Source of the DNA: Folioceros fuciformis
Taxonomy: Eukaryota
Assembly: GCA_049999805.1 (NCBI GenBank)
Contig: JBNGIO010006246.1
Coordinates: 46,736-82,811, forward strand
Direction of reading: 5' to 3'
Length of the DNA stretch: 36,076 bases
The position numbers were made by a program, and so were the translations under genes. Numbering within the stretch: position 1 is the first letter of the stretch; each line of letters starts with the position of its first letter. The notes beneath the pieces were generated by a model. That model saw nothing but the letters and a program-made list of their open reading frames with translations, searched no databases and was not told where the DNA came from. This document shows positions 6,932-36,076 of this stretch, in pieces.

Positions 6932-7525
6932 GACACTTAAATATCACATGTACTATAAACTGATCCGCAAATCAAATTTGCATATGGGTGACCGTGAGAA
7001 TATGCTGCCTTAGACCATACGTCCTGCAGACTTTACTTCCAACAGTACACTGGGTAGGAAGTTGTCAGTAAAGTATGATAAGTGACTTGGTGAGTAGGTG
7101 ATTTAGTGCCTGAAGCCTAAAAGTTAACGAAATAACGAACAAACAAAGAACGTTTAGAGGAGCTTTGCGTAATTGAGGAGGCCAGTTCATAGTGGAAGGA
7201 CGGCGCCTGCCTGGGCTGCGGCAGGTCACGGGCGAGCGAGCACCTCCCGTCTCCCGGCTAAAGCAGCGAGGTCCCTCTCTAGCGGAGGAGGAAGAAGCAG
7301 TCGCGTTCCCCGCATCGACAACCTGGCTAGCGTCAGAGTCGCCCTTGGTATCAGCATGGCCTGGCCTTGCTCTGCTGTGCATGGCATTGCATTTCGCAGC
7401 CCTCGTTTTGCGTCGCGTTTTGCTGTTGCTTCATCGCATCGACATCGTTGCTGATCGATGCCTTGTGTGGCGTCTTCTGGTTTGCGGTTGTTGCAGGGGC
7501 AGGAGGCAGCATCATCGGCCTCGCC

Positions 7526-8533
7526 ATGGCAAGCCCGGCTCCAGGAGCGGAAGAAGCCCCTGCGCCGGCGGCGGAGGGCGAGCAGCCTCCTGCGCGTGGC
7601 GCAAGCGGGAGGTACCGGAGGACCAGCGAGCAGGACCTGGACGTCCCCTTCATGAGCACAAACAAAGCACCGAGCTGCGTGCAGCTGGGATGCACCCACA
7701 CGGGAGCGGAGGGGGCGCTGGTGCACTGCCCGAGCTGCCCCCAGGGGCTCCTGGAGCGGGGAGCTACGTGGACGTGGCGGGAAGTGAAGGCGCAAATGGA
7801 GCTTCCCCGACCACCGAGCACCTGTCTCCCCGTGGAGGACTCCCAGCTCCATATGCGCCTCTTCACCATCCCGCCTCCCTTCAATCGGCTGCACTACCTG
7901 GAGGAGTGCGACAATCGTGACATGGCGCGGTGCGCGCAGCTGCTGCGACTTGTCCAGCTCGGTAAGCACTACCTGAACGGAATCTTCGTGCCCGGGGGGT
8001 CTTCGGGCCACGACCGGGCCGGGCCGCGATCCATCCGCTTCTGCGCCAACTTCGATCACCTGGGGCACGGCAACGCGGCCACCAACTTCCCGGACCCCGG
8101 AGAGGACGCGCTCGGTGACGACTACAGCGTGTACCCGGATTCTTGGATCAAAGGGAATGTGATTGTGGACTACTCTGAGTTCGCACACGAGCTGGAGGAT
8201 GGGAGTGCCTTGGCGCTGGTCACCATTGCTTCCACTCCTGGAAAGATCAATGACCTGGAGCTCGCCACCATGGGAGGTAAGGACGTTGTGTACATGGTGT
8301 CCGCTCTGCGTTTCCATTACCAGCCGCCACCGCCGCGCGCCCAGGCTGTCGGCTGGTTCTATTCCACCGGGAGGCGCTACAACAACCACTTCATGGATCC
8401 CGTCTTCGACGACATCCTCTACTACATGCGGGGCAACCACGACGACGAGTACAACGACTCCCTGCGAGAATCATGGAGAGAGACGCTCTGGTGGCGCGTT
8501 CTTACTCGCTGCAACACCCTCTGCTCTTACTGA
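7526..8533 (+). CDS. Intronless protein of unknown family (~335 aa) with a Cys/His cluster near the N-terminus
   Basis: Long open frame with strongly C/G-ending codons and good start context (GCCATGGC at 7523). An acceptor-like TTGCAG ends at 7496. An Ala/Pro/Glu-rich N-terminus is followed by globular-looking sequence. An upstream coding exon cannot be excluded. Confidence 0.72.
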   Translation: MASPAPGAEEAPAPAAEGEQPPARGASGRYRRTSEQDLDVPFMSTNKAPSCVQLGCTHTGAEGALVHCPSCPQGLLERGATWTWREVKAQMELPRPPSTCLPVEDSQLHMRLFTIPPPFNRLHYLEECDNRDMARCAQLLRLVQLGKHYLNGIFVPGGSSGHDRAGPRSIRFCANFDHLGHGNAATNFPDPGEDALGDDYSVYPDSWIKGNVIVDYSEFAHELEDGSALALVTIASTPGKINDLELATMGGKDVVYMVSALRFHYQPPPPRAQAVGWFYSTGRRYNNHFMDPVFDDILYYMRGNHDDEYNDSLRESWRETLWWRVLTRCNTLCSY

Positions 8534-17239: not shown

Positions 17240-17804
17240 CTACAGCCTGCAATCCCTGCACAGCAAGACAAGCCACATTCTCATTCTCCGTCTGTGTGCT
17301 CCAGATGATGCTGCTGCTGGTACTGCTGGGTTCAGCTCAGAGACGGAAGAGGCACACGCTGGGAGCATGCCAGGGTCGGCATCCGGCCCTGCCCAAACAC
17401 CCCAGACAGAGGAAGACGGAATGAGGAGGAAGAACCCAAAAAAACAGGAAGAAGACGCAGAGAGCAGGAAGCAGAGGTGGAGAAGTAAAAGGTGGCCAAC
17501 GGACTGACACGGAGATCGTATGTGGCAACGGAAGAGGGGACCGAGCCTGGATATAGCTCTGCCCTTGGCTTTGCTTGCCTTCCCTCCTAGTAGACAAATC
17601 GCTCTTGTCTGCACTCCTGATGGACCTTCCCGGCCTGTGCCTACGGTGGTAGCAGGAGCGGGCCTCTCTCTTGGAGCAAGGAGTCGTCTGCACACTCTCT
17701 GGAGAAAGAAAGCGTGTCCGTCATCTCGTTTTCTGGATGTGCGTGTAACAGAGAGAGCATGGGGAAACCGAAGATGGCGGGGTGAAGGTGGGGCAGTGAG
17801 AGCT

Positions 17805-17904
17805 NNNNNNNNNNNNNNNNNNNNNNNNNNNNNNNNNNNNNNNNNNNNNNNNNNNNNNNNNNNNNNNNNNNNNNNNNNNNNNNNNNNNNNNNNNNNNNNN
17901 NNNN
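17805..17904. other. Assembly gap (100 N)
   Basis: Run of N. Confidence 0.99.
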
Positions 17905-18764
17905 GTGTAGTTCCATCCAGCCTTCATCACCCCGATGTTGCTTGCTTTGTTTTGTCGGCGCCTACTCTGTTGCCAGGATGTATCCATGTTATCTACCGCA
18001 TGTGTCACAGTTGGGGACCGCCATAGCCCTTATTGGGCCGTGCCTGCCTTGCTTCGAGCCACAAATCCTCCAACAGCCCCAACTGTTTAGGGCCCCACCC
18101 CAAGTTGCGTTTGCCTTGAGATGGCAGCCTCGTCCAGCTCAGACCATGCAAGCACCCATTCACGTTCTTGGGATTCACCGGGTCCCATAGCCCATACGCC
18201 ATGGGCCATGGCTGGGCATCAGGTCCTCATCATCAGCCAAGGAGGAAGTGGCGGGCATGCTCCTCGCATGTCCATAGGCGTGTGTGTATGCACAAACTTG
18301 TGTACAAAGACATGGTGTCGTAGTTCCCTGACCTGCACCTGCATTTGCGAGGTACCCGTGTGAGGGAGAGAGAGACTTGTACTCCACACTTTGACTTCGA
18401 TTACCCAGGCAGGGCAGCAAGCAGAGCTACTGCGTCAGGGGAAGGAAGGGCAAAGCGCAGCTTGTCGATGATGAGGGAAGGTGTCGTAGTGTGTACACTG
18501 CTACCACCTACTTCCTGCTGCTGGTTGTGTGCTGCACAATCAGTGCAACCACAAGACGCAGTGTCAATCATCGTCAAGCATAATCCAAAGAGTGTTGCAA
18601 CAGCAACAACACAGGAGAGGAGAGCGGAGCGGAGCAGGGCAAACAGCACACCCAACAAAACAGCACAAGCAGGCGGTTAATCCCAATCATGCCCAGCAGC
18701 AGGTACTGATTCCCACCCCAATTGGGCACGTGAACTTCAATCTATGTACATACCTTGGGATTGA

Positions 18765-28040: not shown

Positions 28041-28542
28041 AGGCAAGAACGTGTCCATGGGGGCCCCGGCGCGCAGTATGAGGATAATGTGGCGAACAGT
28101 GCACTGAGTGGCGCATTACGCATCATCAGGCAATCGTGCGCAGCGGCTAATCCCGTAAAACTTAACCACATAACAAACTGTTACAGTTCAGGCTCAATTA
28201 ACTCTTGTGGCCAAGGCTTCCATGGGCCGTGCTTCTCGTGAAATTGCTTGCTGTGAGATAATGCGGCGAGGATGTCGGCAGGCAGAGCAATGAGTTCGCA
28301 TGGGGAATAGAGATGTCCACCATGTGCAAGCATGTTGACTGCCAGGGTGTGGTGTGAGCGCGCAGGTTTGAACTGTTGCACAGTTCCTGATGAAGGTAGG
28401 GTCCGGCAGCTGCTGATGAAGTATAAATGGACAATGCCTCCAGGGACTGTCATCAGAGTCTTTCATCATCTCATCCGATCCTGCGAATCGGTAGCTGCTG
28501 CCCGCCTACAGTCTGTCCCAGCTGAGTTCAGTCGCCTGCAAC
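28041..28542 (+). promoter_or_regulatory. Promoter/5' region of repeat-protein gene 1 (ABRE-like and TATA elements)
   Basis: ACGTGTC at 28049-28055 and TATAAAT at 28422-28428. The region aligns with 31135-31613. Confidence 0.6.
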
Positions 28543-29122
28543 ATGGGGCTCCGACTGCTGGGTCTGTTGCTGGTGCTGTTTGTTGCTGTTTCGCTTGTTC
28601 AGGAAGCGAGTGCTCGATATGACTTGCCTGAGCAGACGTTTAAGCCGGGGAAGGGACATGCTTATGGATATGGCAAGCACAAGGAGGTGAAGAAGCCCGA
28701 GGAGAAGCCATACAAGAAGCCCGAGGAGAAGCCATANNNNNNNNNNGGAGAAGCCATACAAGAAGCCCGAGGAGAAGCCATACAAGAAGCCCGTGGAGAA
28801 GCCATACAAGAAGCCCGAGTACAAGCCTGCCTCACCCCCTGCTTACACCAAGCCTGAGGAGAAGCCAGGCAAGGGCCATGCCTATGGATACGGCAAGCTG
28901 AAGAAGCACGAGGAGAAGAAGCCCGTGTACAAGCCGAAGCCGGTGGAATACAAGCCTGCCTCACCCCCTGTCTATACCAAGCCCAAGGAGAAGCCAGGCA
29001 AGGGTCATGCCTATGGATATGGCAAGCCGAAGAAGCACGAGGAGAAGAAGCCGGAATACAAGCCTGCCGCCCCCCCTGCCTACACCAAGCCTGAGGGGAA
29101 GGCATCTCCTCCCAAGTACTGA
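28543..29122 (+). CDS. Secreted Lys/Pro/Glu/Tyr-rich repeat protein (PRP/extensin-like cell-wall protein), copy 1
   Basis: Signal peptide MGLRLLGLLLVLFVAVSLVQEASA; KPYKKPEE repeats; three KPGKGHAYGYGK; three YKPA(S/A)PP(A/V)YTKP; ends SPPKY*. The apparent frameshift coincides with a 10-N gap (28737-28746) inside the 24-nt repeat. Confidence 0.88.
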
Positions 29123-29719
29123 GGCCACCACCTGACACCGGGGATAGTGCGCTGAAATCTGCCTAGTACGTCCACAATGGTGAATGGCGCACATGATTTT
29201 TTGCAGCTTGGTGGGAGTAACTTGAAAATCCATCCTTCTCACGTCTCTCGAACTGGGTGTGTGGCAGGATCACCCGGAATTGACAATGGAATTGCTGTGA
29301 CATCTCAAGGACTGTTGTGAAGTGAAATCGTTTCCGGCGAGTTTCCAACACCTGTAGGAATTATTTGCAGCCCTTCTCACCAAAGTGGCTGCGTGCTTTG
29401 AAGAGAGTAGGACACATTTGTTCTGGTTGCCAGATTTCGGGAACCGATCTGCGCCACGGCACATGTTGTAAATAAAGCTTCAAAGAGTGCTACATCAGTT
29501 TCAGTTCTCCTTCTCGTCCCATTTCCTTGCACCAGACTGGTATAGTTCACGAGTTTCGTACTAGTAGTGCGCTTGGTAGGCAATTCAGCCAATGCGTGGC
29601 AATGTAGCTATGGCATACTAAAGAAGACACTCCCTCTCTCTACATGCTTTATTGTTTTCCCACGGGATATCCATCCTCCATTCCCGGGAACTCGACATCC
29701 GGTTTGGGCAGGCGAGCCA

Positions 29720-29895: not shown

Positions 29896-30905
29896 ATGGA
29901 CACCAGCATTTTCCCAGTGTGCGTGCCAGCGAAATCGGAGACGATGTTCTCAAAGCACATGATCGGCGGGATGCGGAGATCAGCAGAGATCAAGCTCTCC
30001 GCTGCAAATTATGATACTTAATGTTCCCAACGGATTGGCCATCGATATCGTGGAGCTGATGTGAAACATTACCAGTGATCGCTGTGGAGGTTGTGGCGTA
30101 CAGACTCGATCTTATTGCCCCCACCAGCGATCCAGGAAAGATGACGAACCTGCCTCCAAAGAGATGCGAGGACTGCGCTCTGGGGTTCCATCACGACGTG
30201 AGGGGAGAGCTAAGAATCAGATGAGACGCTGACTCTAACCAACTATGATCATTAGATCTCAGATGAAAATGTTACAATAGTACCGAAATCTCGGTAGCTC
30301 GGGCTAAAACTTCCTTGTTGTGTGGGATACCGTGTTGATTCATAATTGAGATCCTCTGGTACTCTGGAGTGATCAGGGACAGCTCCGAGGTTAGGAAGAG
30401 GTCAAGAGCTGAGACTGTGGGCCATGGTCACGGAAGGCATCGAGGAGGAACACTTGAAGCGGTCTCGATTGCTACATTTCCCCACATTTGAGTCGCCCAG
30501 CCGGATTGTCGCAAACCTCCGGTGGCGACCCCCGTACACAACCAAAAGCAGGACTGGATTGCCTCTAGCGCAACCAAGGTGTTTGCATTTGCCCGATTAT
30601 GAAAAGGTCATCCAGATTTCCTTGACGCTATCTTTGGCAATTCCTTGCGCGCACAGCGATTTGAATATTGTGGAAAGTTGACACTAAGACTAAGCTTGCG
30701 CAGGTCCCGGGCGCACAGGATCCGGAGGCTTACACTAACGGGGCCACGACGAGGAAGGGTTGCATAAACCAGAGGCAATGGGAAACCCTGGTTTCGTGGA
30801 CAGCCTTACCTTCGACATGGAATCGACTGGCCACGGACTGCTCAAACTTGTCCGATGGTCCTGTATGCAGTTCAGATACGAAGGTAGAAGCTGGCTTCCA
30901 TCTAG
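29896..30905 (+). pseudogene. RPB3: RPB3-like pseudogene, copy 2, near full length
   Basis: From ATG 29896: QHFPSVRASEIGDDVLK..QALR, MILNVP..LAIDIVEL, EVVAYRLDLIAPTS, CEDCALGF, DETLTLTNYD, RLGRGQELRLWAMVTEGIEEEHLK, DPEAYT, DEE..KPEAMGNPG..SLTFDMESTG, VLYAVQIRR*KLASI*. Many frameshifts and stops. Confidence 0.82.
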
Positions 30906-30941
30906 ATGCTCTGCACCGAAAAGACATCCACTCGCCGAGCC

Positions 30942-31128
30942 ACCTGGATGTGCAGCTGGTTAAAGACCAGAAGTCTACGTGCAGAGCTCCATTGATAGGA
31001 CCAACCTTCTGGCCCACGTTGATTGACGAGGACCTGGATGTGCAGCTGATTAAAAACCACAAGTCTACATGCAAAGCTTCATTGACAGGACCAGCCTTCT
31101 GGCCCACCTTGATTGCCGAGAACCTGGA
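30942..31128. repeat. 90-bp tandem duplication
   Basis: ACCTGGATGTGCAGCTG at 30942 and 31032; a third ACCTGGA at 31122. Confidence 0.88.
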
Positions 31129-31134
31129 CAAGGC

Positions 31135-31613
31135 AGGCAGTAACGTGTCCGGGGGGACTGGCGCGCAGTCAATCGAGAATGTGATAAATAGGAGACTGAG
31201 TGCCGCATTATCAGGCAATCGTGCAACGAACTCGGAAAAGCTTGACCGCATGGGGAACTGTTCCATTTAAAGCTTGACTCTCTTGGCCGAACATTTAAGT
31301 GCTTCTAGTAAAATTGCTCGGCGAGGACATCGGAAGGCAGAGTAATGGAGCCCCGTTTTCGAGATCTGGGATTTGTGGAAATAGTCCACGCGGAGAGGGG
31401 ATTCTGACAATGTTCATGAATATTGACTGGCAGGGCCCGGTGCGTGAGACGGTGAGAGTGCAGCTGGTTTGAACTGATGCACAGTTCTTGGATCAAGTCA
31501 TGGCCGGGAGGTGCTGGTGCAGTATAAATGGGTAGTGGCCGCTAAGATTCGAAACCATCGTCTCTTATCGTCGACTCTGGAAGAGTCCCTTTGTCCATTA
31601 CTTAGCCTGCGAC
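31135..31613 (+). promoter_or_regulatory. Promoter/5' region of repeat-protein gene 2
   Basis: ACGTGTC at 31143-31149 and TATAAAT at 31523-31529. Homologous to 28041-28542. Confidence 0.6.
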
Positions 31614-32133
31614 ATGGGGATCCGACTGCTGGGTCTGTTTCTGGTGTTGTTCTTTGCGGTTTCGTTTGTTCAGGAAGCGAGTGCACGATATGACATCCCT
31701 GGAGACAAACTCAAGAAGGGACATGCCTATGCTTACGGCAAGCAAAACAAGGTGAAGAAGCCGCACTACAAGAAGCCCGAGGAGCATCCGTACAAGAAGC
31801 CCGAGGAGCATCCGTACAAGAAGCCCGAGGAGAAGCCATACAAGAAGCCCGAGGAGAAGCCNNNNNNNNNNCGAGGAGAAGCCATACAAGAAGCCCGAGG
31901 AGAAGCCATACAAGAAGCCCGAGGAGAAGCCTTACAAGAAGCCCGAGGAGAAGCCTTACAAGAAGCCCGAGGAGAAGCCTTACAAGAAGCCAGAGGAGAA
32001 GCCCTACAAGAAGCCCGAGGAGAAGCCGGGGAAGGGCCATGCCTACGGATATGGTAAGCCGAAGAAGCACGAGAAGAAGCCTGATTACAAATCAAAGACA
32101 CACGACAAGCCTGTTTCTCCTCCCAAATACTGA
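31614..32133 (+). CDS. Secreted Lys/Pro/Glu/Tyr-rich repeat protein, copy 2
   Basis: Signal peptide MGIRLLGLFLVLFFAVSFVQEASA; about ten visible (K/H)PYKKPEE repeats; KGHAYAYGK and KPGKGHAYGYGK; ends SPPKY*. A 10-N gap (31862-31871) lies within the repeat. Confidence 0.88.
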
Positions 32134-32960
32134 GCCCATCAATGGGGACAACGCACTGGCATCTGCCCAGAACCAGGTACTTGACAATCGTGAACAGCAC
32201 GCATTGCTCATGCAGCGTCTGAAGAAAAGGCCTCATCATCCTTTTCCTCATCACTGGAGCGTTTGGTGGCAGATCGCCTGGAAACCATGAAAGCTCCGAG
32301 ACCTCGACGACTTTGTCAATTGACAACGTTTTTTACCAGATTTTAACTACCGTAGGAGAACTGTTAGCAGCCTTCCTGTCTTCGTGGCTGTGTGCATTGA
32401 AGCGCTTGAACAGCAGGATACATCTGTCTCAGTTGAGCAGAATCGGGAACCGGTATAAGCATGCACTGAACAAATCTTGAAATACATAACTTCCTGCTTT
32501 CCAAGTCCCTGCAGATTGAACATCCCTTCGTAAGCACGTGGGATCCACTAGTGAATCCATACTTCACTATGTCCATCTGAAGCTAGAGCGTGCTCGATGC
32601 GTGTGGCTGAAACCCCTTCCGGCATGCATCACGTCTCTCCAAGTCTGCCCACCATCTCGTCCCTCATTAGCATTAGAGGTGCTAATAGTATTAGCATTCA
32701 CATCCGTATTAGTATCGATATCATTAGCAACGTGAAAACCAGTAGTCAAGCCCCAATAAGATAATAGTTCACTTGCGCAATATATCTAAAACTCGAGGGG
32801 CCAGGAAGTTTTCCTAAAGCCATGCCTACGTATAAATACATGGTGCAGCCGCATCTCGCTACAACAAAATCTGACTGACGCCTCCGGCTATAAGTGCTCT
32901 CTAGGTCACTCCATATTTTTCCTACTTGTTTCAAAGATCATAAGCTTTGTTCTAGGCACA

Positions 32961-33569
32961 ATGCAGGGCTTGCTTAATCTCAAGTTAAAAGACATGGCTG
33001 GTGTAGGCGTGGGAGACAAGATTATTCTAAGTGGTCGACCATGTATCATACAAGAGAACACAAAGATTGGGAAGTTTTATTTTTTGAGGGGACAAGACAT
33101 CCTCTTGCATCAGGAAGTTCGAGATTACATCTTATGCTCCAAGCAAAGTCCATGTCAGGCAGTTGAGATTGTCTACACAAAGTACTCAGTCATGTCCACT
33201 AGCAAAGCAGCTAAGGGACGGAGATGCGTGACCTTGAGACAGATTGAAACGAAGCATCATGAAAACGTTGTGTTGCAACTTCCTCTTGATCCAGAGCTTG
33301 ATATGCTTGTAGAAGACGGGCTAGCAAAAGGAAAGCATTTGGTGATGACGCTCATGTTTGTCTTGGCAGGAGGAGCTAAAGTTTCCAAAGAGTTTCGTTT
33401 TGAAAATCTATGTGAGATTATCTCGATGGAAATATTGTGGCAGAGCAATTGTGCAGATGTGTCACATGCACAAGATGCTAGGAAAAACGATTGGTGGTCA
33501 TTTGGAAAATTAGATGAGAGTGGTCCAAAGCCAGGTGAAGACCTCTGGGAATACTATCACCGTGCTTAG
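32961..33569 (+). CDS. Highly diverged eIF5A-like protein (202 aa, intronless) with a shortened hypusine loop and a C-terminal extension
   Basis: IILSGRPCII ~ IVIKNRPCKV; GQDILLHQEVRD ~ AIDIFTSKKLED; YSVMSTS ~ YQLIDIS; LQLPLDPELDMLVEDGLAKGKHLVMTLM ~ LKLPNDDTLLQQIKSGFDDGKDLVVSVM. The ORF is uninterrupted; expression is unknown. Confidence 0.7.
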   Translation: MQGLLNLKLKDMAGVGVGDKIILSGRPCIIQENTKIGKFYFLRGQDILLHQEVRDYILCSKQSPCQAVEIVYTKYSVMSTSKAAKGRRCVTLRQIETKHHENVVLQLPLDPELDMLVEDGLAKGKHLVMTLMFVLAGGAKVSKEFRFENLCEIISMEILWQSNCADVSHAQDARKNDWWSFGKLDESGPKPGEDLWEYYHRA

Positions 33570-33635
33570 TATGGTTTTGGCTATTGGAAGCCCAGACTTT
33601 GTTATGGTTTTGGCTATTGGAAGCCCAGACTTTGT
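33570..33635. repeat. Perfect 33-bp tandem duplication directly after the eIF5A-like stop codon
   Basis: TATGGTTTTGGCTATTGGAAGCCCAGACTTTGT at 33570 and 33603. Confidence 0.95.
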
Positions 33636-35400
33636 TTGCAGGTCAAGTCTCTAATCCTAGTCTAGATTTTAGGTTTATCATATACGATAAAATTGACATG
33701 CGATGTCAAATATTGTTAGTGTCCAATACATTGTGACAATATTGTATTCTTGCTTTGCAAAGGGTGTTGGCTAATGCGATCTTTAGAATAATGAGAAGTG
33801 GAGGTAGAGTGAGTTTTGCACAATAGGTTGTAGGTAGGCTGAGGCTGGCTTTTGTCATTTCACATGACGACTCTTCTCTTTTTGGTCTTTGGGACTGGTA
33901 GGGTGGTCCTTTTCATCTTTGGAGTTGATGAGATTTTTCATCTTTTTTTAATAAAATTATTCTCATCACTCGTATAAAGATTGTTGGATAAGATATAAAT
34001 TATATAATAATAAAATAATAATAATACTTCACTGAGTACGAAGTAAATCTGTGTTAATTGTGCAACATGCAGGCAGGGCTGCTCCTTGTCAGATATGTCT
34101 GATTTATGTCATGTCTGAGTTGCTACTGCAACCTTGTGGTGCGTGATTGTTTGCAAATCCTTTGTCCCGGTTCATCCAAGATGGTCCATGATATGTATGA
34201 CTGGCAGTATGCGATGAGATATGTACGCCGCGGATCAAGGATCAGTAGCCCAGCATCGGGATGGGAAGGCAGGGCGGGGAGCAAATGGAGGAGATTACGG
34301 ACAGGATCCCAGAAAGAAGCCGGGCCAGACAGTTCCGGAACATTCTCATCATCTCTGTCCAACATTCGGGACCCGCACCCGGAAAAGCATGTGCAGCCAA
34401 AATACGAGTGGGAAAGTGCTGTGAATTGGGATGCGGGGCACATGTCGTCACAGCTATGGAGGTGTAGAAATGAAATCAGAAACTAAAAGCAAACTTTTGT
34501 CCAATTCGTCAGAGCGGTGTCAAAGATCTGGGTGTACGAGCTGCAGCAGACGACTCGTCACGTACGTCTGTTCACCAGTATGAGATGAGTGCGGTACAAG
34601 CATGTCGTCCTGTATGTATGTGCATATGTATGTCCTGAGCGGGAGAACAATGAGAGGTACATGGCGCACTTCCTCGCCTAGCATATATGGCCTAGCCCAC
34701 TCTACGCATTTCAGAGAATGAATGCTGCTGGGAACAAAAAAAAATGAACTACAATGCAATGACCCTCACATCTCTCCACCATGCAAGCGGAGGGTGCTGG
34801 GCAAAAAAATATGCCTGACCTAGCCTGAAGGAAGTGTGACTCGATCACCAAGCAGGGGGTGAGAGAAGGAAAAATGGGCTGTCGGTAATCATCAAGGATG
34901 AAGTGTGTCTGACTGTTAAGGGGATGTACTACACTCGGCTGTCTTCTCCTGCGGAGGGTCTGTGCAGGAGATTGAAAGGCTTGTCAAATTCTAGTTGCAG
35001 ACTATGGAGAGTGGGAGAGAAATGTAGGATAGCCATGGCCTATTGACCTGCGATGAATGCAGGCAGACGGTGTGCAGCTTCACGTCGAAATGACTAGCCA
35101 GCCTGGAGCGCATTCTCTCCCATCCATCCTTCCTTCCTCGATGGCAAACCTAAGCTAATCAGGTACCTTCTCGTGCGGCTAGCTGGTGACGTTCGTCTTG
35201 CTTCTCCACTCTTGACGTGACCAGCTCAAGGCCTGAGACCCAAGAATGTATGCCCTAGGCTTGGAAAATCCCTCCGTCAAGCCTTGTGCTGTTCCCAGGA
35301 AAATGCAGCTGCAGCAGCAGTGATTCCAGAGTAATCCGAATGGCATTGTAGCCATTGTGCTATACATAGACTGTATTTCACGCGTGGATCGTCGTGTAGG

Positions 35401-36076
35401 TCACAAGTCGTCCCACAGCTTGGGATCCGCAAAGGAATCGCCTCCAATGGCGTCGTCGAAGGCGTCCGCTCCTCCAGGCTGGTGCCCTCCCAGCTGCATC
35501 TGCTCCAGCGCCATGGCCTGCCGGAGCTCCAGCTCGTCCAAATCCAACTGCAGGCACGCGCCCGGCGCACTGCACGTGCTGCTGCTCTCCATCGCCCCTA
35601 GCGTTGCTCCAGGACCTGTTCCGCTTCCAGCATTGGCATTGGCAATCCTCTGTTGCTGATGCTCCTGCTCCTGCGGCGGCGGCCGGTGCTGTTGCTGTGG
35701 CTGCTGCCGATGCTGTTGCTGCGACTGCTGCTCCTGGACATGGAACCAGTCATGAGTCGGCGTGGAGAGATTGGAGGATGTGGCTGTGGCCGCCGTGTCC
35801 CCGAGAGAGTCCAGAGCAGAATCTACCCGCTCCCCGGATACCTCCCCCCGCGTACTCATGCTGCTACAGCTAGAGGACATTTCGGCCAGCTTCACCCAGA
35901 ACTGCGCGTCCGGATGCATCAGCATTTGCTGTTGATGCTGCTGCTGCTGTAAATGCTGTCGCTGCATCATCTCGTGTTGCAGCCGATCCATCTCCATTTT
36001 CATCTCGTGTTCCCGCAGTCGCAGCTGTATCTGCAGCTGCACCTCCATCTGCTGCTGCTCCAGCTGGAACTGACCC
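35401..36076 (-). CDS. C-terminal part of a Gln-rich protein, probably a transcription factor; 5' end lies outside the window
   Basis: The frame is open from the window end to the stop at 35401. It has poly-Q tracts, Ser/Thr-rich linkers and an acidic-aromatic terminus (DAFDDAIGGDSFADPKLWDDL*). No DNA-binding domain is visible. Confidence 0.75.
   Translation of the reverse strand, partial: GQFQLEQQQMEVQLQIQLRLREHEMKMEMDRLQHEMMQRQHLQQQQHQQQMLMHPDAQFWVKLAEMSSSCSSMSTRGEVSGERVDSALDSLGDTAATATSSNLSTPTHDWFHVQEQQSQQQHRQQPQQQHRPPPQEQEHQQQRIANANAGSGTGPGATLGAMESSSTCSAPGACLQLDLDELELRQAMALEQMQLGGHQPGGADAFDDAIGGDSFADPKLWDDL

What the first reader, a model, noticed from the sequence alone, without database searches (positions are those of the whole stretch)
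32961..33569. eIF5A-derived ORF that has lost most of the hypusine loop: a possible plant parallel to fungal HEX-1 neofunctionalisation
Seen: an intact, intronless 202-aa ORF matching both eIF5A domains. The segment between RPC and DI(F/L) is 17 aa rather than ~23, with STSKTGKHGHAK reduced to NTKIGK. There is a novel ~50-aa Trp-rich acidic tail. Known: this loop is nearly invariant in eIF5A and is required for recognition by deoxyhypusine synthase. Fungal HEX-1 (Woronin body) is an eIF5A paralogue that lost this function and became a self-assembling structural protein. Inference: an open frame despite heavy divergence suggests a repurposed protein or a decoy. The C-terminus (HRA) is not a canonical PTS1, so any parallel would be an analogy only.
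Basis: partly seen in the sequence, partly recalled or inferred. Interest (0 to 1): 0.72.

Follow-up and report, generated by a model that had tools for sequence, protein, structure and literature searches.

The report
Diverged eIF5A copy without hypusine loop
A plant-type genome carries an intact, intron-free and very diverged copy of the translation factor eIF5A that has lost the loop needed for its unique hypusine modification; it is probably a repurposed or fading paralogue, but whether it is made or used is not shown.

Summary
The 202-codon ORF at 32961..33569 (+) is real. Standard searches find nothing: Pfam, PDB phmmer, two protein libraries and the ESM atlas. Targeted tests support descent from eIF5A.

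- BLASTP against a sunflower eIF5A record gives E 1e-5, colinear over both domains. Smith-Waterman z is 8.3, with 0 of 1000 shuffles as good.
- A model folded without any alignment has eIF5A chains as its best PDB matches (Z up to 8.3). HEX-1 comes next.

The loop count is right: 17 residues against 23. The Gly-Lys of the hypusine site is kept, but HGHAK has become FYFLR. The core is basic (pI 9.1). The 52-residue tail is acidic, Trp-rich and predicted disordered.

Neutral decay to this divergence left the frame open in 0 of 3000 simulations, so the frame was probably maintained.

Weak points: no relatives were found, and the lineage is not in the libraries. There is no clear promoter. The single RNA-like run has only one 171-nt low-depth contig on the ORF.

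Verdict: a real eIF5A derivative that is almost certainly not hypusinated. Its function is unknown and no HEX-1-like property is shown.

The parts
32961..33569 (+). Intact intronless ORF, 202 aa plus TAG stop (P0001)
   Evidence: GC at codon positions 1/2/3 is 0.52/0.34/0.43.
32997..33170 (+). Residues 13-70: region colinear with the eIF5A N-terminal domain, with I21, P27 and C28 retained
   Evidence: BLASTP; MAFFT; conserved-column count. On its own it is weak (z 1.8-3.8). No structural test: pLDDT is below 40 in the alignment-free model.
33057..33089 (+). Residues 33-43, NTKIGKFYFLR: remnant of the hypusination loop. Gly-Lys kept, HGHAK replaced by FYFLR, hairpin 6 residues shorter
   Evidence: The loop's role in entering the DHS tunnel comes from passages of PMC10042821.
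33171..33404 (+). Residues 71-148: eIF5A-type C-terminal OB domain with an inserted helix (residues 111-122)
   Evidence: Alignment-free AF2 model. VIA Z 8.3/8.2/8.0 to Leishmania and Arabidopsis eIF5A, rmsd 2.3-2.5 A over 71-76 residues. Top row of the search that does not use Foldseek. SW z 8.4 against P0185.
33411..33566 (+). Residues 151-202: acidic, Trp-rich extension beyond the end of the eIF5A alignment, predicted disordered
   Evidence: Composition and pI. pLDDT below 50 for residues 161-185. No similarity to eIF5A (z about 0). Weaker codon-position GC pattern, 0.49/0.42/0.40.
33570..33635 (.). Perfect 33-bp tandem duplication starting at the first base after the stop codon
   Evidence: DNA-run contigs break here.
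32831..32838 (+). TATAAATA, 123 nt upstream of the ATG. Ambiguous: a possible TATA box, but it lies 21-28 nt before the end of the upstream gene's RNA-like contig, so it may be that gene's polyadenylation signal
   Evidence: Sequence. The X3 contig 31986-32859 ends at 32859. The reading as a poly(A) signal is inference.

Best explanation
The ORF is a lineage-specific, intronless and extremely diverged paralogue of plant eIF5A, probably a retrogene. Its reading frame has been kept open by selection for most of its history.

What it keeps is the two-domain beta architecture. The C-terminal OB domain with the eIF5A-type helix is shown. The N-terminal barrel is inferred from the colinear alignment only.

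What it has lost is the feature that makes eIF5A a translation factor. The hypusination hairpin is 6 residues shorter, and the residues after the modified-lysine position have changed from HGHAK to bulky FYFLR. It therefore very probably cannot enter the deoxyhypusine synthase tunnel and is not hypusinated (inference).

Two further changes stand out. The core has switched from acidic to basic (pI 9.1 against 4.9 for an ordinary eIF5A). A 52-residue acidic, Trp-rich, disordered tail has been added beyond the ancestral end, most simply by loss of the old stop codon (inference).

The mechanism I commit to, all inferred: it no longer acts in peptide-bond formation. It works as a small binding module, with the basic barrel pair holding RNA or a ribosome-associated partner and the acidic aromatic tail serving as a docking motif. 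Expression would be low or restricted to particular tissues or conditions.
For: Descent from eIF5A:
- BLASTP to sunflower eIF5A gives E 1e-5 and 26% identity over 118 residues spanning both domains, with 41% over 32 residues in the C-domain helix region. BLASTP to an algal-type eIF5A gives E 9e-5.
- SW against P0185 gives z 8.3, 0 of 1000 shuffles as good. Reversed-sequence and tail controls give z of about 0 to 1.
- tblastn of P0185 against all six frames of the window hits only this ORF (E 0.002-0.003; the next hit is 0.06).
- MAFFT reproduces the same colinear alignment.
- Of 26 columns at least 90% identical among 34 IF5A rows, P0001 is identical at 9, against about 20% identity overall.

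Fold, from a model made with no alignment:
- In Foldseek over 350,542 PDB chains, ranks 1, 2, 4 and 6-11 are eIF5A (best E 0.011).
- In VIA over 48,161 representative chains, rank 1 is eIF5A at Z 6.7.
- In the VIA second look, ranks 1-17 are all eIF5A at Z 8.3-6.8. HEX-1 follows at 6.7-6.2 and generic OB folds score 5.8 or less.

Frame maintained:
- Substitution-only neutral simulation left the frame open in 2 of 3000 runs at 45% identity and 0 of 3000 at 23%.
- The chance of 202 open codons at local composition is about 1e-6 to 3e-6.
- GC1 > GC3 > GC2, as in coding sequence.

Loss of hypusination:
- Loop data.
- Human EIF5AL1 differs from EIF5A1 at only three residues and is not hypusinated (PMC10093921, abstract).

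Plant context: neighbouring genes carry PPR, F-box/Kelch, RCC1, CBS and KH domains.
Against: - Profile methods do not recognise the protein. Pfam gives 0 families at E up to 10. PDB phmmer lists no eIF5A at E up to 10. hhalign gives P 0.0088 with probability 4.6%. An HMM of 108 eukaryotic eIF5As scores it 2.9 bits, and it is not among the six best-scoring of 5002 real, reversed and shuffled sequences. ESM recognition is 1942, below the 2300 mark.
- The pairwise E of 1e-5 would be only borderline in a database-wide search. No Foldseek E-value reaches 1e-3, and the Z of about 8 is at the tool's stated grey limit.
- C-domain similarity is significant only against the single land-plant record. That record carries an internal duplication, which gives it two chances to match.
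- No homologue exists in 1.84 billion representatives or in the other collections, so neither age nor selection can be measured.
- GC3 is 0.43, below every neighbouring gene (0.49-0.78) and close to the flanking non-coding DNA (0.36-0.45).
- There is no independent promoter evidence. The only TATA-like element may belong to the upstream gene's 3' end.
- The binding-module mechanism rests on charge and composition alone.
Confidence: 0.55

Rival explanations
1. It is a relic: an eIF5A-derived gene that was functional for a long time but is now silent and freshly released from constraint. It would be an intact but dying pseudogene with no present function.
For: GC3 (0.43) has drifted to the level of the surrounding non-coding DNA, unlike all neighbouring genes. 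There is no clear promoter, and TATAAATA sits at the upstream gene's RNA contig end. The tail shows weak codon-position structure. No annotated relative exists anywhere.
Against: There is not a single stop or frameshift in 202 codons. The simulation shows that even 0.1 substitution events per site leave the frame open in only 214 of 3000 runs, so any silent period must be short. Conserved core positions are still enriched.
Confidence: 0.25
2. The similarity is spurious: a chance or de novo ORF whose resemblance to eIF5A is coincidental.
For: All profile and library searches are negative. The HMM even prefers a different, non-colinear alignment of residues 57-83 to the loop region. ORFs of 202 codons or more arise in 7 of 200 simulated windows. 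The structural Z values are in the tool's grey zone.
Against: Three methods of different kinds all point to eIF5A and to nothing else: BLASTP/SW, MAFFT colinearity and an alignment-free AF2 model searched by two aligners. The best sequence match is to the land-plant member, as descent predicts. Ranks 1-17 of the second look are a single family.
Confidence: 0.1
3. It is a competitor or decoy of the eIF5A pathway: a non-modifiable eIF5A look-alike that occupies the ribosomal E site, DHS or an eIF5A exportin and so damps eIF5A function.
For: The two-domain eIF5A architecture and the Gly-Lys position are retained. The N-terminal part is basic, and DHS binding is helped by a positively charged eIF5A N-domain (PMC10042821, passages). 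Human non-hypusinated EIF5AL1 has growth-inhibiting effects (PMC10093921, abstract).
Against: 17 of the 26 most conserved IF5A columns are changed, including all five residues after the lysine and the following Lys-Lys pair. The shortened hairpin could not reach the tunnel or the peptidyl-transferase centre (inference). No expression is shown.
Confidence: 0.07
4. It is a HEX-1-like self-assembling structural protein.
For: It shares ancestry with the fold that HEX-1 uses, and HEX-1 chains appear among the structural matches (Z 6.2-6.7).
Against: HEX-1 matches are weaker than eIF5A matches. The C-terminus HRA is not PTS1-like, whereas Hex1 needs PTS1 targeting (PMC3713238, passages). HEX-1 is specific to Pezizomycotina (same paper). 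Nothing indicates lattice contacts.
Confidence: 0.03

Closest known systems
Canonical plant eIF5A (small multigene family; hypusinated translation elongation factor)
   Same: Colinear similarity over both domains, best to a land-plant member. The C-terminal OB domain with helix matches Arabidopsis eIF5A-2 (3hks) at Z 8.0, rmsd 2.3 A, 20% identity. The motif around Pro-Cys and the Gly-Lys of the modification site are kept.
   Different: Only about 20-26% identity. No Pfam match. The loop is 6 residues shorter and HGHAK has become FYFLR. The core pI is 9.1 instead of about 4.9. There is an extra 52-residue tail. The ORF has no intron; that plant eIF5A genes have introns is recalled, not tested here.
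Fungal HEX-1 / Woronin body major protein
   Same: An eIF5A-fold protein that no longer serves in translation. It appears in the structural hit lists.
   Different: HEX-1 still carries a recognisable eIF5A domain (PMC5656841, passage). It has a C-terminal PTS1 and self-assembles in peroxisomes (PMC3713238, passages). This ORF has none of these features shown, and it is structurally nearer to eIF5A than to HEX-1.
Human EIF5AL1
   Same: An extra eIF5A-family gene whose product is not hypusinated and is unstable or weakly expressed (PMC10093921, abstract).
   Different: EIF5AL1 differs from EIF5A1 at 3 residues. This ORF differs at about three quarters of its positions and has a new tail.
Archaeal aIF5A, giant-virus eIF5A and bacterial EF-P
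   Same: The same fold family. aIF5A and EF-P appear lower in the structural lists (1eif Z 5.8; EF-P 6s8z Z 5.2).
   Different: All 120 archaeal and 17 viral loci were fetched by means of the intact loop motif. Sequence similarity to them is weaker: hhalign P 0.021 against the archaeal alignment, and SW z 1.0-2.7 for 8 of the 9 divergent viral-contig forms (L135 reaches 4.0), against 4.8-6.0 for the four algal-type ones.

Membership tests
eIF5A (functional, hypusinated translation factor) | Conserved hypusination loop (S-K-T-G-K-H-G-H-A-K) on an extended hairpin | tested here: not met
   Only T-K-I-G-K is retained. HGHAK is replaced by FYFLR and the hairpin is 6 residues shorter.
eIF5A (functional, hypusinated translation factor) | Match to the Pfam models IF5A-like_N (PF21485) and eIF-5a (PF01287) | tested here: not met
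   0 families at E up to 10. True IF5A proteins carry these domains.
eIF5A (functional, hypusinated translation factor) | C-terminal OB domain of eIF5A type | tested here: met
   Alignment-free model: Z 8.3-6.8 to 17 eIF5A entries, rmsd 2.0-2.5 A. Top row of the wide search, Z 6.7.
eIF5A (functional, hypusinated translation factor) | N-terminal SH3-like barrel | tested here: inconclusive
   The sequence alignment is colinear but weak on its own. pLDDT is below 40 without an alignment. The confident model was guided by eIF5A rows and is not independent.
eIF5A (functional, hypusinated translation factor) | Deoxyhypusine and hypusine modification by DHS and DOHH | not testable with these tools
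   Needs a biochemical assay. Inferred absent from the loop changes and from PMC10042821 and PMC10093921.
eIF5A superfamily (homologue by descent) | Statistically supported, colinear sequence similarity to family members | tested here: met
   BLASTP E 1e-5. SW z 8.3, 0 of 1000 shuffles. It is the only tblastn hit in the window. Profile tests are not significant.
HEX-1 / Woronin body protein | C-terminal PTS1 peroxisomal signal | tested here: not met
   The C-terminus is H-R-A. The PTS1 pattern (small residue, basic residue, Leu/Met) is recalled. Hex1's dependence on PTS1 comes from PMC3713238.
HEX-1 / Woronin body protein | Closer to HEX-1 than to eIF5A | tested here: not met
   HEX-1 entries score Z 6.7-6.2, below 17 eIF5A entries at Z 8.3-6.8.
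HEX-1 / Woronin body protein | Self-assembly into a crystalline lattice | not tested
An experiment is needed.
Processed retrogene | Intronless copy of an intron-containing parent, with a poly(A) remnant and target-site duplications | tested here: inconclusive
   The ORF is uninterrupted over the whole alignment. No flanking direct repeats were found. There is only an A/T-rich stretch near 33945-34030. The parent gene could not be seen because the genome is not held.

The most novel reading that the evidence does not exclude
A plant lineage has independently turned the near-invariant translation factor eIF5A into a non-hypusinated protein with a new job. It keeps the barrel-plus-OB scaffold, has reversed its charge and has gained an acidic Trp-rich docking tail. 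As far as my searches show, this would be the second case of eIF5A neofunctionalisation after fungal HEX-1 and the first in plants.
Probability: 0.35. Interest if true: 0.75.

Novelty: new variant of a known kind. Interest (0 to 1): 0.5.

Why it matters
eIF5A is one of the most conserved eukaryotic proteins and the only known carrier of hypusine. Paralogues that abandon the modification are very rare: fungal HEX-1 is the textbook case, and human EIF5AL1 is a near-identical one.

A maintained, strongly diverged, loop-less derivative in a plant would show that the scaffold can be reused outside fungi. It would also give a natural experiment on which eIF5A surfaces matter without hypusine.

It is also a methodological case. 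All standard family searches missed the gene, and it was recovered only by a targeted pairwise comparison and by searching with an alignment-free structure model.

If the ORF proves to be silent, it is simply an unusually well-preserved relic.

Tried and rejected
**Searches that found nothing**
- Pfam at E up to 10.
- PDB phmmer: only two quercetinase chains at E about 2.
- The search for homologous proteins.
- phmmer over 1.84 billion representatives.
- ESM atlas, whole protein and residues 1-150.
- Related loci in metagenome and viral contigs.
- Earlier scan findings.
- Paralogues inside the window.
- Rfam.

The own genome is not held, so the parent eIF5A gene, paralogues and synteny could not be examined. 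The exact look-up showed that neither this ORF nor the neighbouring Kelch F-box protein is in the protein collection. The absence of relatives therefore says little.

**Profile tests**
- hhalign against the eukaryote-type alignment: P 0.0088, probability 4.6%. Against the archaeal alignment: P 0.021, N-terminal 32 residues only.
- HMM of 13 sequences: the ORF ranked 2nd of 1001.
- HMM of 108 sequences: not significant and partly non-colinear.

**Expression**
- No listed holder is on record as RNA.
- Run X3 is labelled only 'RNA?'. Its very uneven depth (0 to about 12,000) looks like RNA.
- On the ORF, X3 has one 171-nt contig (33163-33333, depth 3.4) and no cover elsewhere. Flanking transcribed stretches have depth 287 and 156.
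- The contig could come from an own transcript or from about 1% read-through of the highly expressed upstream gene. I draw no conclusion on expression.

**Other steps**
- The AF2 model guided by an eIF5A alignment (pLDDT 74; 83-92 in the 10-residue blocks spanning residues 11-130, apart from one block at 76) is circular. I use it only for the disorder of the tail.
- The self-association test could not be run: complex prediction had a full queue and then became unavailable.
- The bacterial promoter/terminator scan is irrelevant for a eukaryote.
- A viral (giant-virus insertion) origin was considered and rejected. Similarity to 8 of the 9 divergent viral-contig eIF5As is weaker than to the plant one, though L135 reaches z 4.0. 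The neighbours are ordinary plant-type genes.
- Capture by a transposon was considered. No terminal repeats flank the ORF.

**Literature**
Searches found no paper describing a loop-less eIF5A derivative in plants. Only open-access full texts are covered.

Full report
**1. What is in the sequence**

An uninterrupted ORF of 202 codons runs from ATG 32961 to TAG 33567-33569 on the + strand. The stop-free frame begins at 32790. No in-frame ATG lies upstream, and no other ATG lies between about 32865 and the start.

In 200 simulated 36-kb sequences of local composition, 1 had a stop-free run of 259 codons or more and 7 had 202 or more. The ORF is therefore unusual for a window, although such frames would occur by chance somewhere in a large genome.

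GC at codon positions 1/2/3 is 0.52/0.34/0.43. This is a coding-like pattern, but GC3 is below every neighbouring gene (0.49-0.78) and close to the flanks (0.45 and 0.36).

The neighbours are plant-type genes with PPR, F-box/Kelch, RCC1, CBS, KH and GIY-YIG domains.

**2. Standard searches see nothing**

- Pfam: 0 families at E up to 10.
- PDB phmmer: only two quercetinase chains at E about 2.
- Word-indexed protein search: 0 hits.
- phmmer over 1.84 billion representatives: 0 hits.
- ESM atlas: no usable hit, recognition 1942.
- Metagenome and viral contig scans: no relative.
- The genome is not held.
- Neither this ORF nor the clearly genuine Kelch F-box neighbour is in the 15-billion-protein collection. 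The lineage is unsampled there, and the lack of relatives is uninformative.

**3. Obtaining eIF5A sequences by tool**

I scanned genome contigs and viral contigs with a degenerate pattern for the loop motif quoted in the finding. This gave archaeal aIF5A and eukaryote-type eIF5A ORFs. A further protein search added 120 eukaryotic eIF5As. One is a sunflower record, P0185, which carries an internal duplication.

**4. Is the ORF eIF5A-derived?**

Evidence for, from sequence:
- BLASTP against P0185 gives E 1e-5 and 26% identity over 118 residues, colinear through both domains. A second HSP gives 41% over 32 residues around the C-domain helix.
- BLASTP against an algal-type eIF5A gives E 9e-5. Against another protist eIF5A it gives 0.037.
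- Smith-Waterman against P0185 scores 69, z 8.3, with 0 of 1000 shuffles as good. The reversed sequence and the tail give z of about 0 to 1.
- The signal is mostly in residues 71-150 (z 8.4) and is specific to the land-plant sequence. The N part gives z 1.8-3.8, with 4 to 67 of 1000 shuffles as good.
- tblastn of P0185 against the whole window hits only this ORF (E 0.002-0.003; the next hit is 0.06).
- MAFFT of the ORF with 34 IF5A sequences gives the same register.
- At the 26 columns at least 90% identical among the 34 rows, the ORF matches 9.

Evidence for, from structure. An AlphaFold2 model made from the single sequence is poor (pLDDT 39) but mostly beta, with one helix at residues 111-122. 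Searching with it gave:
- Foldseek against 350,542 PDB chains: eIF5A at ranks 1, 2, 4 and 6-11, with best E 0.011 and probability 1.00. No row reaches E 1e-3.
- VIA against 48,161 representatives, independent of Foldseek: an eIF5A at rank 1 (Z 6.7) and a Woronin-body protein at rank 2 (Z 6.2). Generic OB folds are tied within 1 Z unit.
- The VIA second look: ranks 1-17 are all eIF5A (Z 8.3-6.8, rmsd 2.0-2.5 A, 61-76 residues), including Arabidopsis eIF5A-2 at Z 8.0. HEX-1 follows at 6.7-6.2, and other OB folds score 5.8 or less.
- These matches cover model residues of about 69-162 only. The N-terminal domain is not structurally tested.

Evidence against:
- hhalign gives P 0.0088 with probability 4.6%, and 0.021 against archaea.
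- A 13-sequence HMM ranks the ORF 2nd of 1001.
- A 108-sequence HMM gives 2.9 bits, a partly different alignment, and does not place the ORF among the six best-scoring of 5002 sequences. This is expected if the heavily weighted loop columns are missing, but it is still a failed test.

Overall I put descent from plant eIF5A at about 0.85-0.9.

**5. What changed**

- Between Pro-Cys and Asp-Ile there are 17 residues instead of 23.
- The alignments place T-K-I-G-K opposite S-K-T-G-K, so the Gly-Lys of the modification site is kept.
- The next five invariant residues, HGHAK, are now FYFLR. The following Lys-Lys pair is Gln-Glu, and the hairpin is 6 residues shorter.
- In the human eIF5A-DHS structure, the loop enters the active site through a tunnel and nearly the whole N-domain is needed (PMC10042821, passages).
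- Three substitutions are enough to abolish hypusination in human EIF5AL1 (PMC10093921, abstract).
- I therefore infer that this protein is not hypusinated and cannot act as eIF5A does.
- Residues 1-150 have pI 9.06, against 4.94 for an ordinary eIF5A. Residues 151-202 have pI 4.63, 4 Trp and no eIF5A counterpart. They are of low confidence even in the alignment-guided model (that model is circular for the core).

**6. Maintained or decaying?**

Starting from the ORF itself, substitution-only neutral evolution left the frame open in:
- 214 of 3000 runs at 0.1 events per site;
- 11 of 3000 at 0.25;
- 2 of 3000 at 0.5 (45% identity);
- 0 of 3000 at 1.0 (23% identity).

Indels would make this worse. 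If the homology is real, the frame has been protected for most of the divergence. This argues against a plain decayed retrocopy. It does not exclude a recently silenced relic.

**7. Expression and surroundings**

- Two DNA-like runs cover the region evenly at about 10x with no differences in the ORF. They may be the source sample.
- One run labelled 'RNA?' has very uneven depth: up to about 12,000 on the upstream proline-rich-protein gene, 287 on 31986-32859 and 156 on 34484-35500. On the ORF it has a single 171-nt contig (33163-33333) at depth 3.4. I do not read this as evidence for or against expression.
- The 287-depth contig ends at 32859, which is 21 nt after TATAAATA (32831-32838) and 102 nt before the ATG. 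The apparent TATA box may therefore be the upstream gene's poly(A) signal (inference).
- A perfect 33-bp tandem duplication starts right after the stop codon.
- No flanking direct or inverted repeats suggest a transposon or target-site duplication.

**8. Comparison with known systems**

It is a homologue of eIF5A by descent. It fails the defining features of a functional eIF5A, namely the loop and the Pfam models.

It resembles HEX-1 only in being an eIF5A-fold protein that has left translation:
- HEX-1 keeps a recognisable eIF5A domain (PMC5656841, passage).
- HEX-1 has a PTS1 and self-assembles (PMC3713238, passages).
- This ORF ends in HRA and is structurally nearer to eIF5A.
- Self-association could not be tested.

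Plant eIF5A is described as a small multigene family of hypusinated isoforms (PMC8309165, passages). My searches found no report of a loop-less plant derivative.

**9. Verdict**

- Best reading (0.55): a lineage-specific, selectively maintained, non-hypusinable eIF5A derivative acting as a binding module. The mechanism is inferred.
- Rivals: a freshly silenced relic (0.25), a spurious resemblance (0.10), a pathway decoy or competitor (0.07), and a HEX-1-like assembler (0.03).
- Novelty: a new variant of a known kind.
- Interest: 0.5.

Noticed in passing
window about 28540-29125 and 31614-32133 (+): Tandem pair of genes for secreted proline-rich repeat proteins: a signal-peptide-like N-terminus followed by K-P-E-E-K-P-Y-K repeats (24-nt period, 11 copies in the second gene). 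In the RNA-like run X3 the second gene reaches summed depth of about 12,000, and a contig runs on from 31986 to 32859, implying a 3' UTR of about 730 nt.
   Followed up: partly
window 33570-33635: Perfect 33-bp tandem duplication beginning at the first base after the ORF's stop codon. Contigs of both DNA runs break here. Cause and meaning unknown.
   Followed up: partly
window 30665-31270, both strands: Long open frames on both strands (201 aa on +, 178 aa on -), with a 90-nt tandem repeat (2.1 copies, 88% identical) at 30942-31128. The + frame has no Pfam match.
   Followed up: no
window 7226-8533, both strands: GC-rich stretch (0.60) with open frames of 400 aa (+) and 414 aa (-). Neither has any Pfam match. 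Which strand codes, if either, was not determined.
   Followed up: no
window near 17800-17920, 28740 and 31860: Runs of N (read as X in translations) inside or next to genes, including both proline-rich repeat genes. They are assembly gaps or masked stretches and break the apparent frames.
   Followed up: no
L121-L137 (viral contigs): 17 IMG/VR contigs, mostly giant-virus MAGs, encode eukaryote-type eIF5A with an intact hypusine loop. They fall into three length classes: 141-144, 157-158 and 169-171 aa. The longest has an insertion in the C-terminal domain. The 157-158 aa class is 80-99% identical to pelagophyte-like proteins.
   Followed up: partly
P0185 and P0184: The sunflower and Paracoccidioides eIF5A records each contain an internal duplication of 40 to 60 residues, probably from gene-model or assembly artefacts. 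The duplication gives P0185 two chances to match the C-domain.
   Followed up: partly
P0212: A 157-aa metagenome eIF5A-like protein in which the hypusine-loop segment is replaced by unrelated residues while the rest is normal. This looks like a frameshifted stretch in the assembly rather than a natural loop-less form.
   Followed up: no
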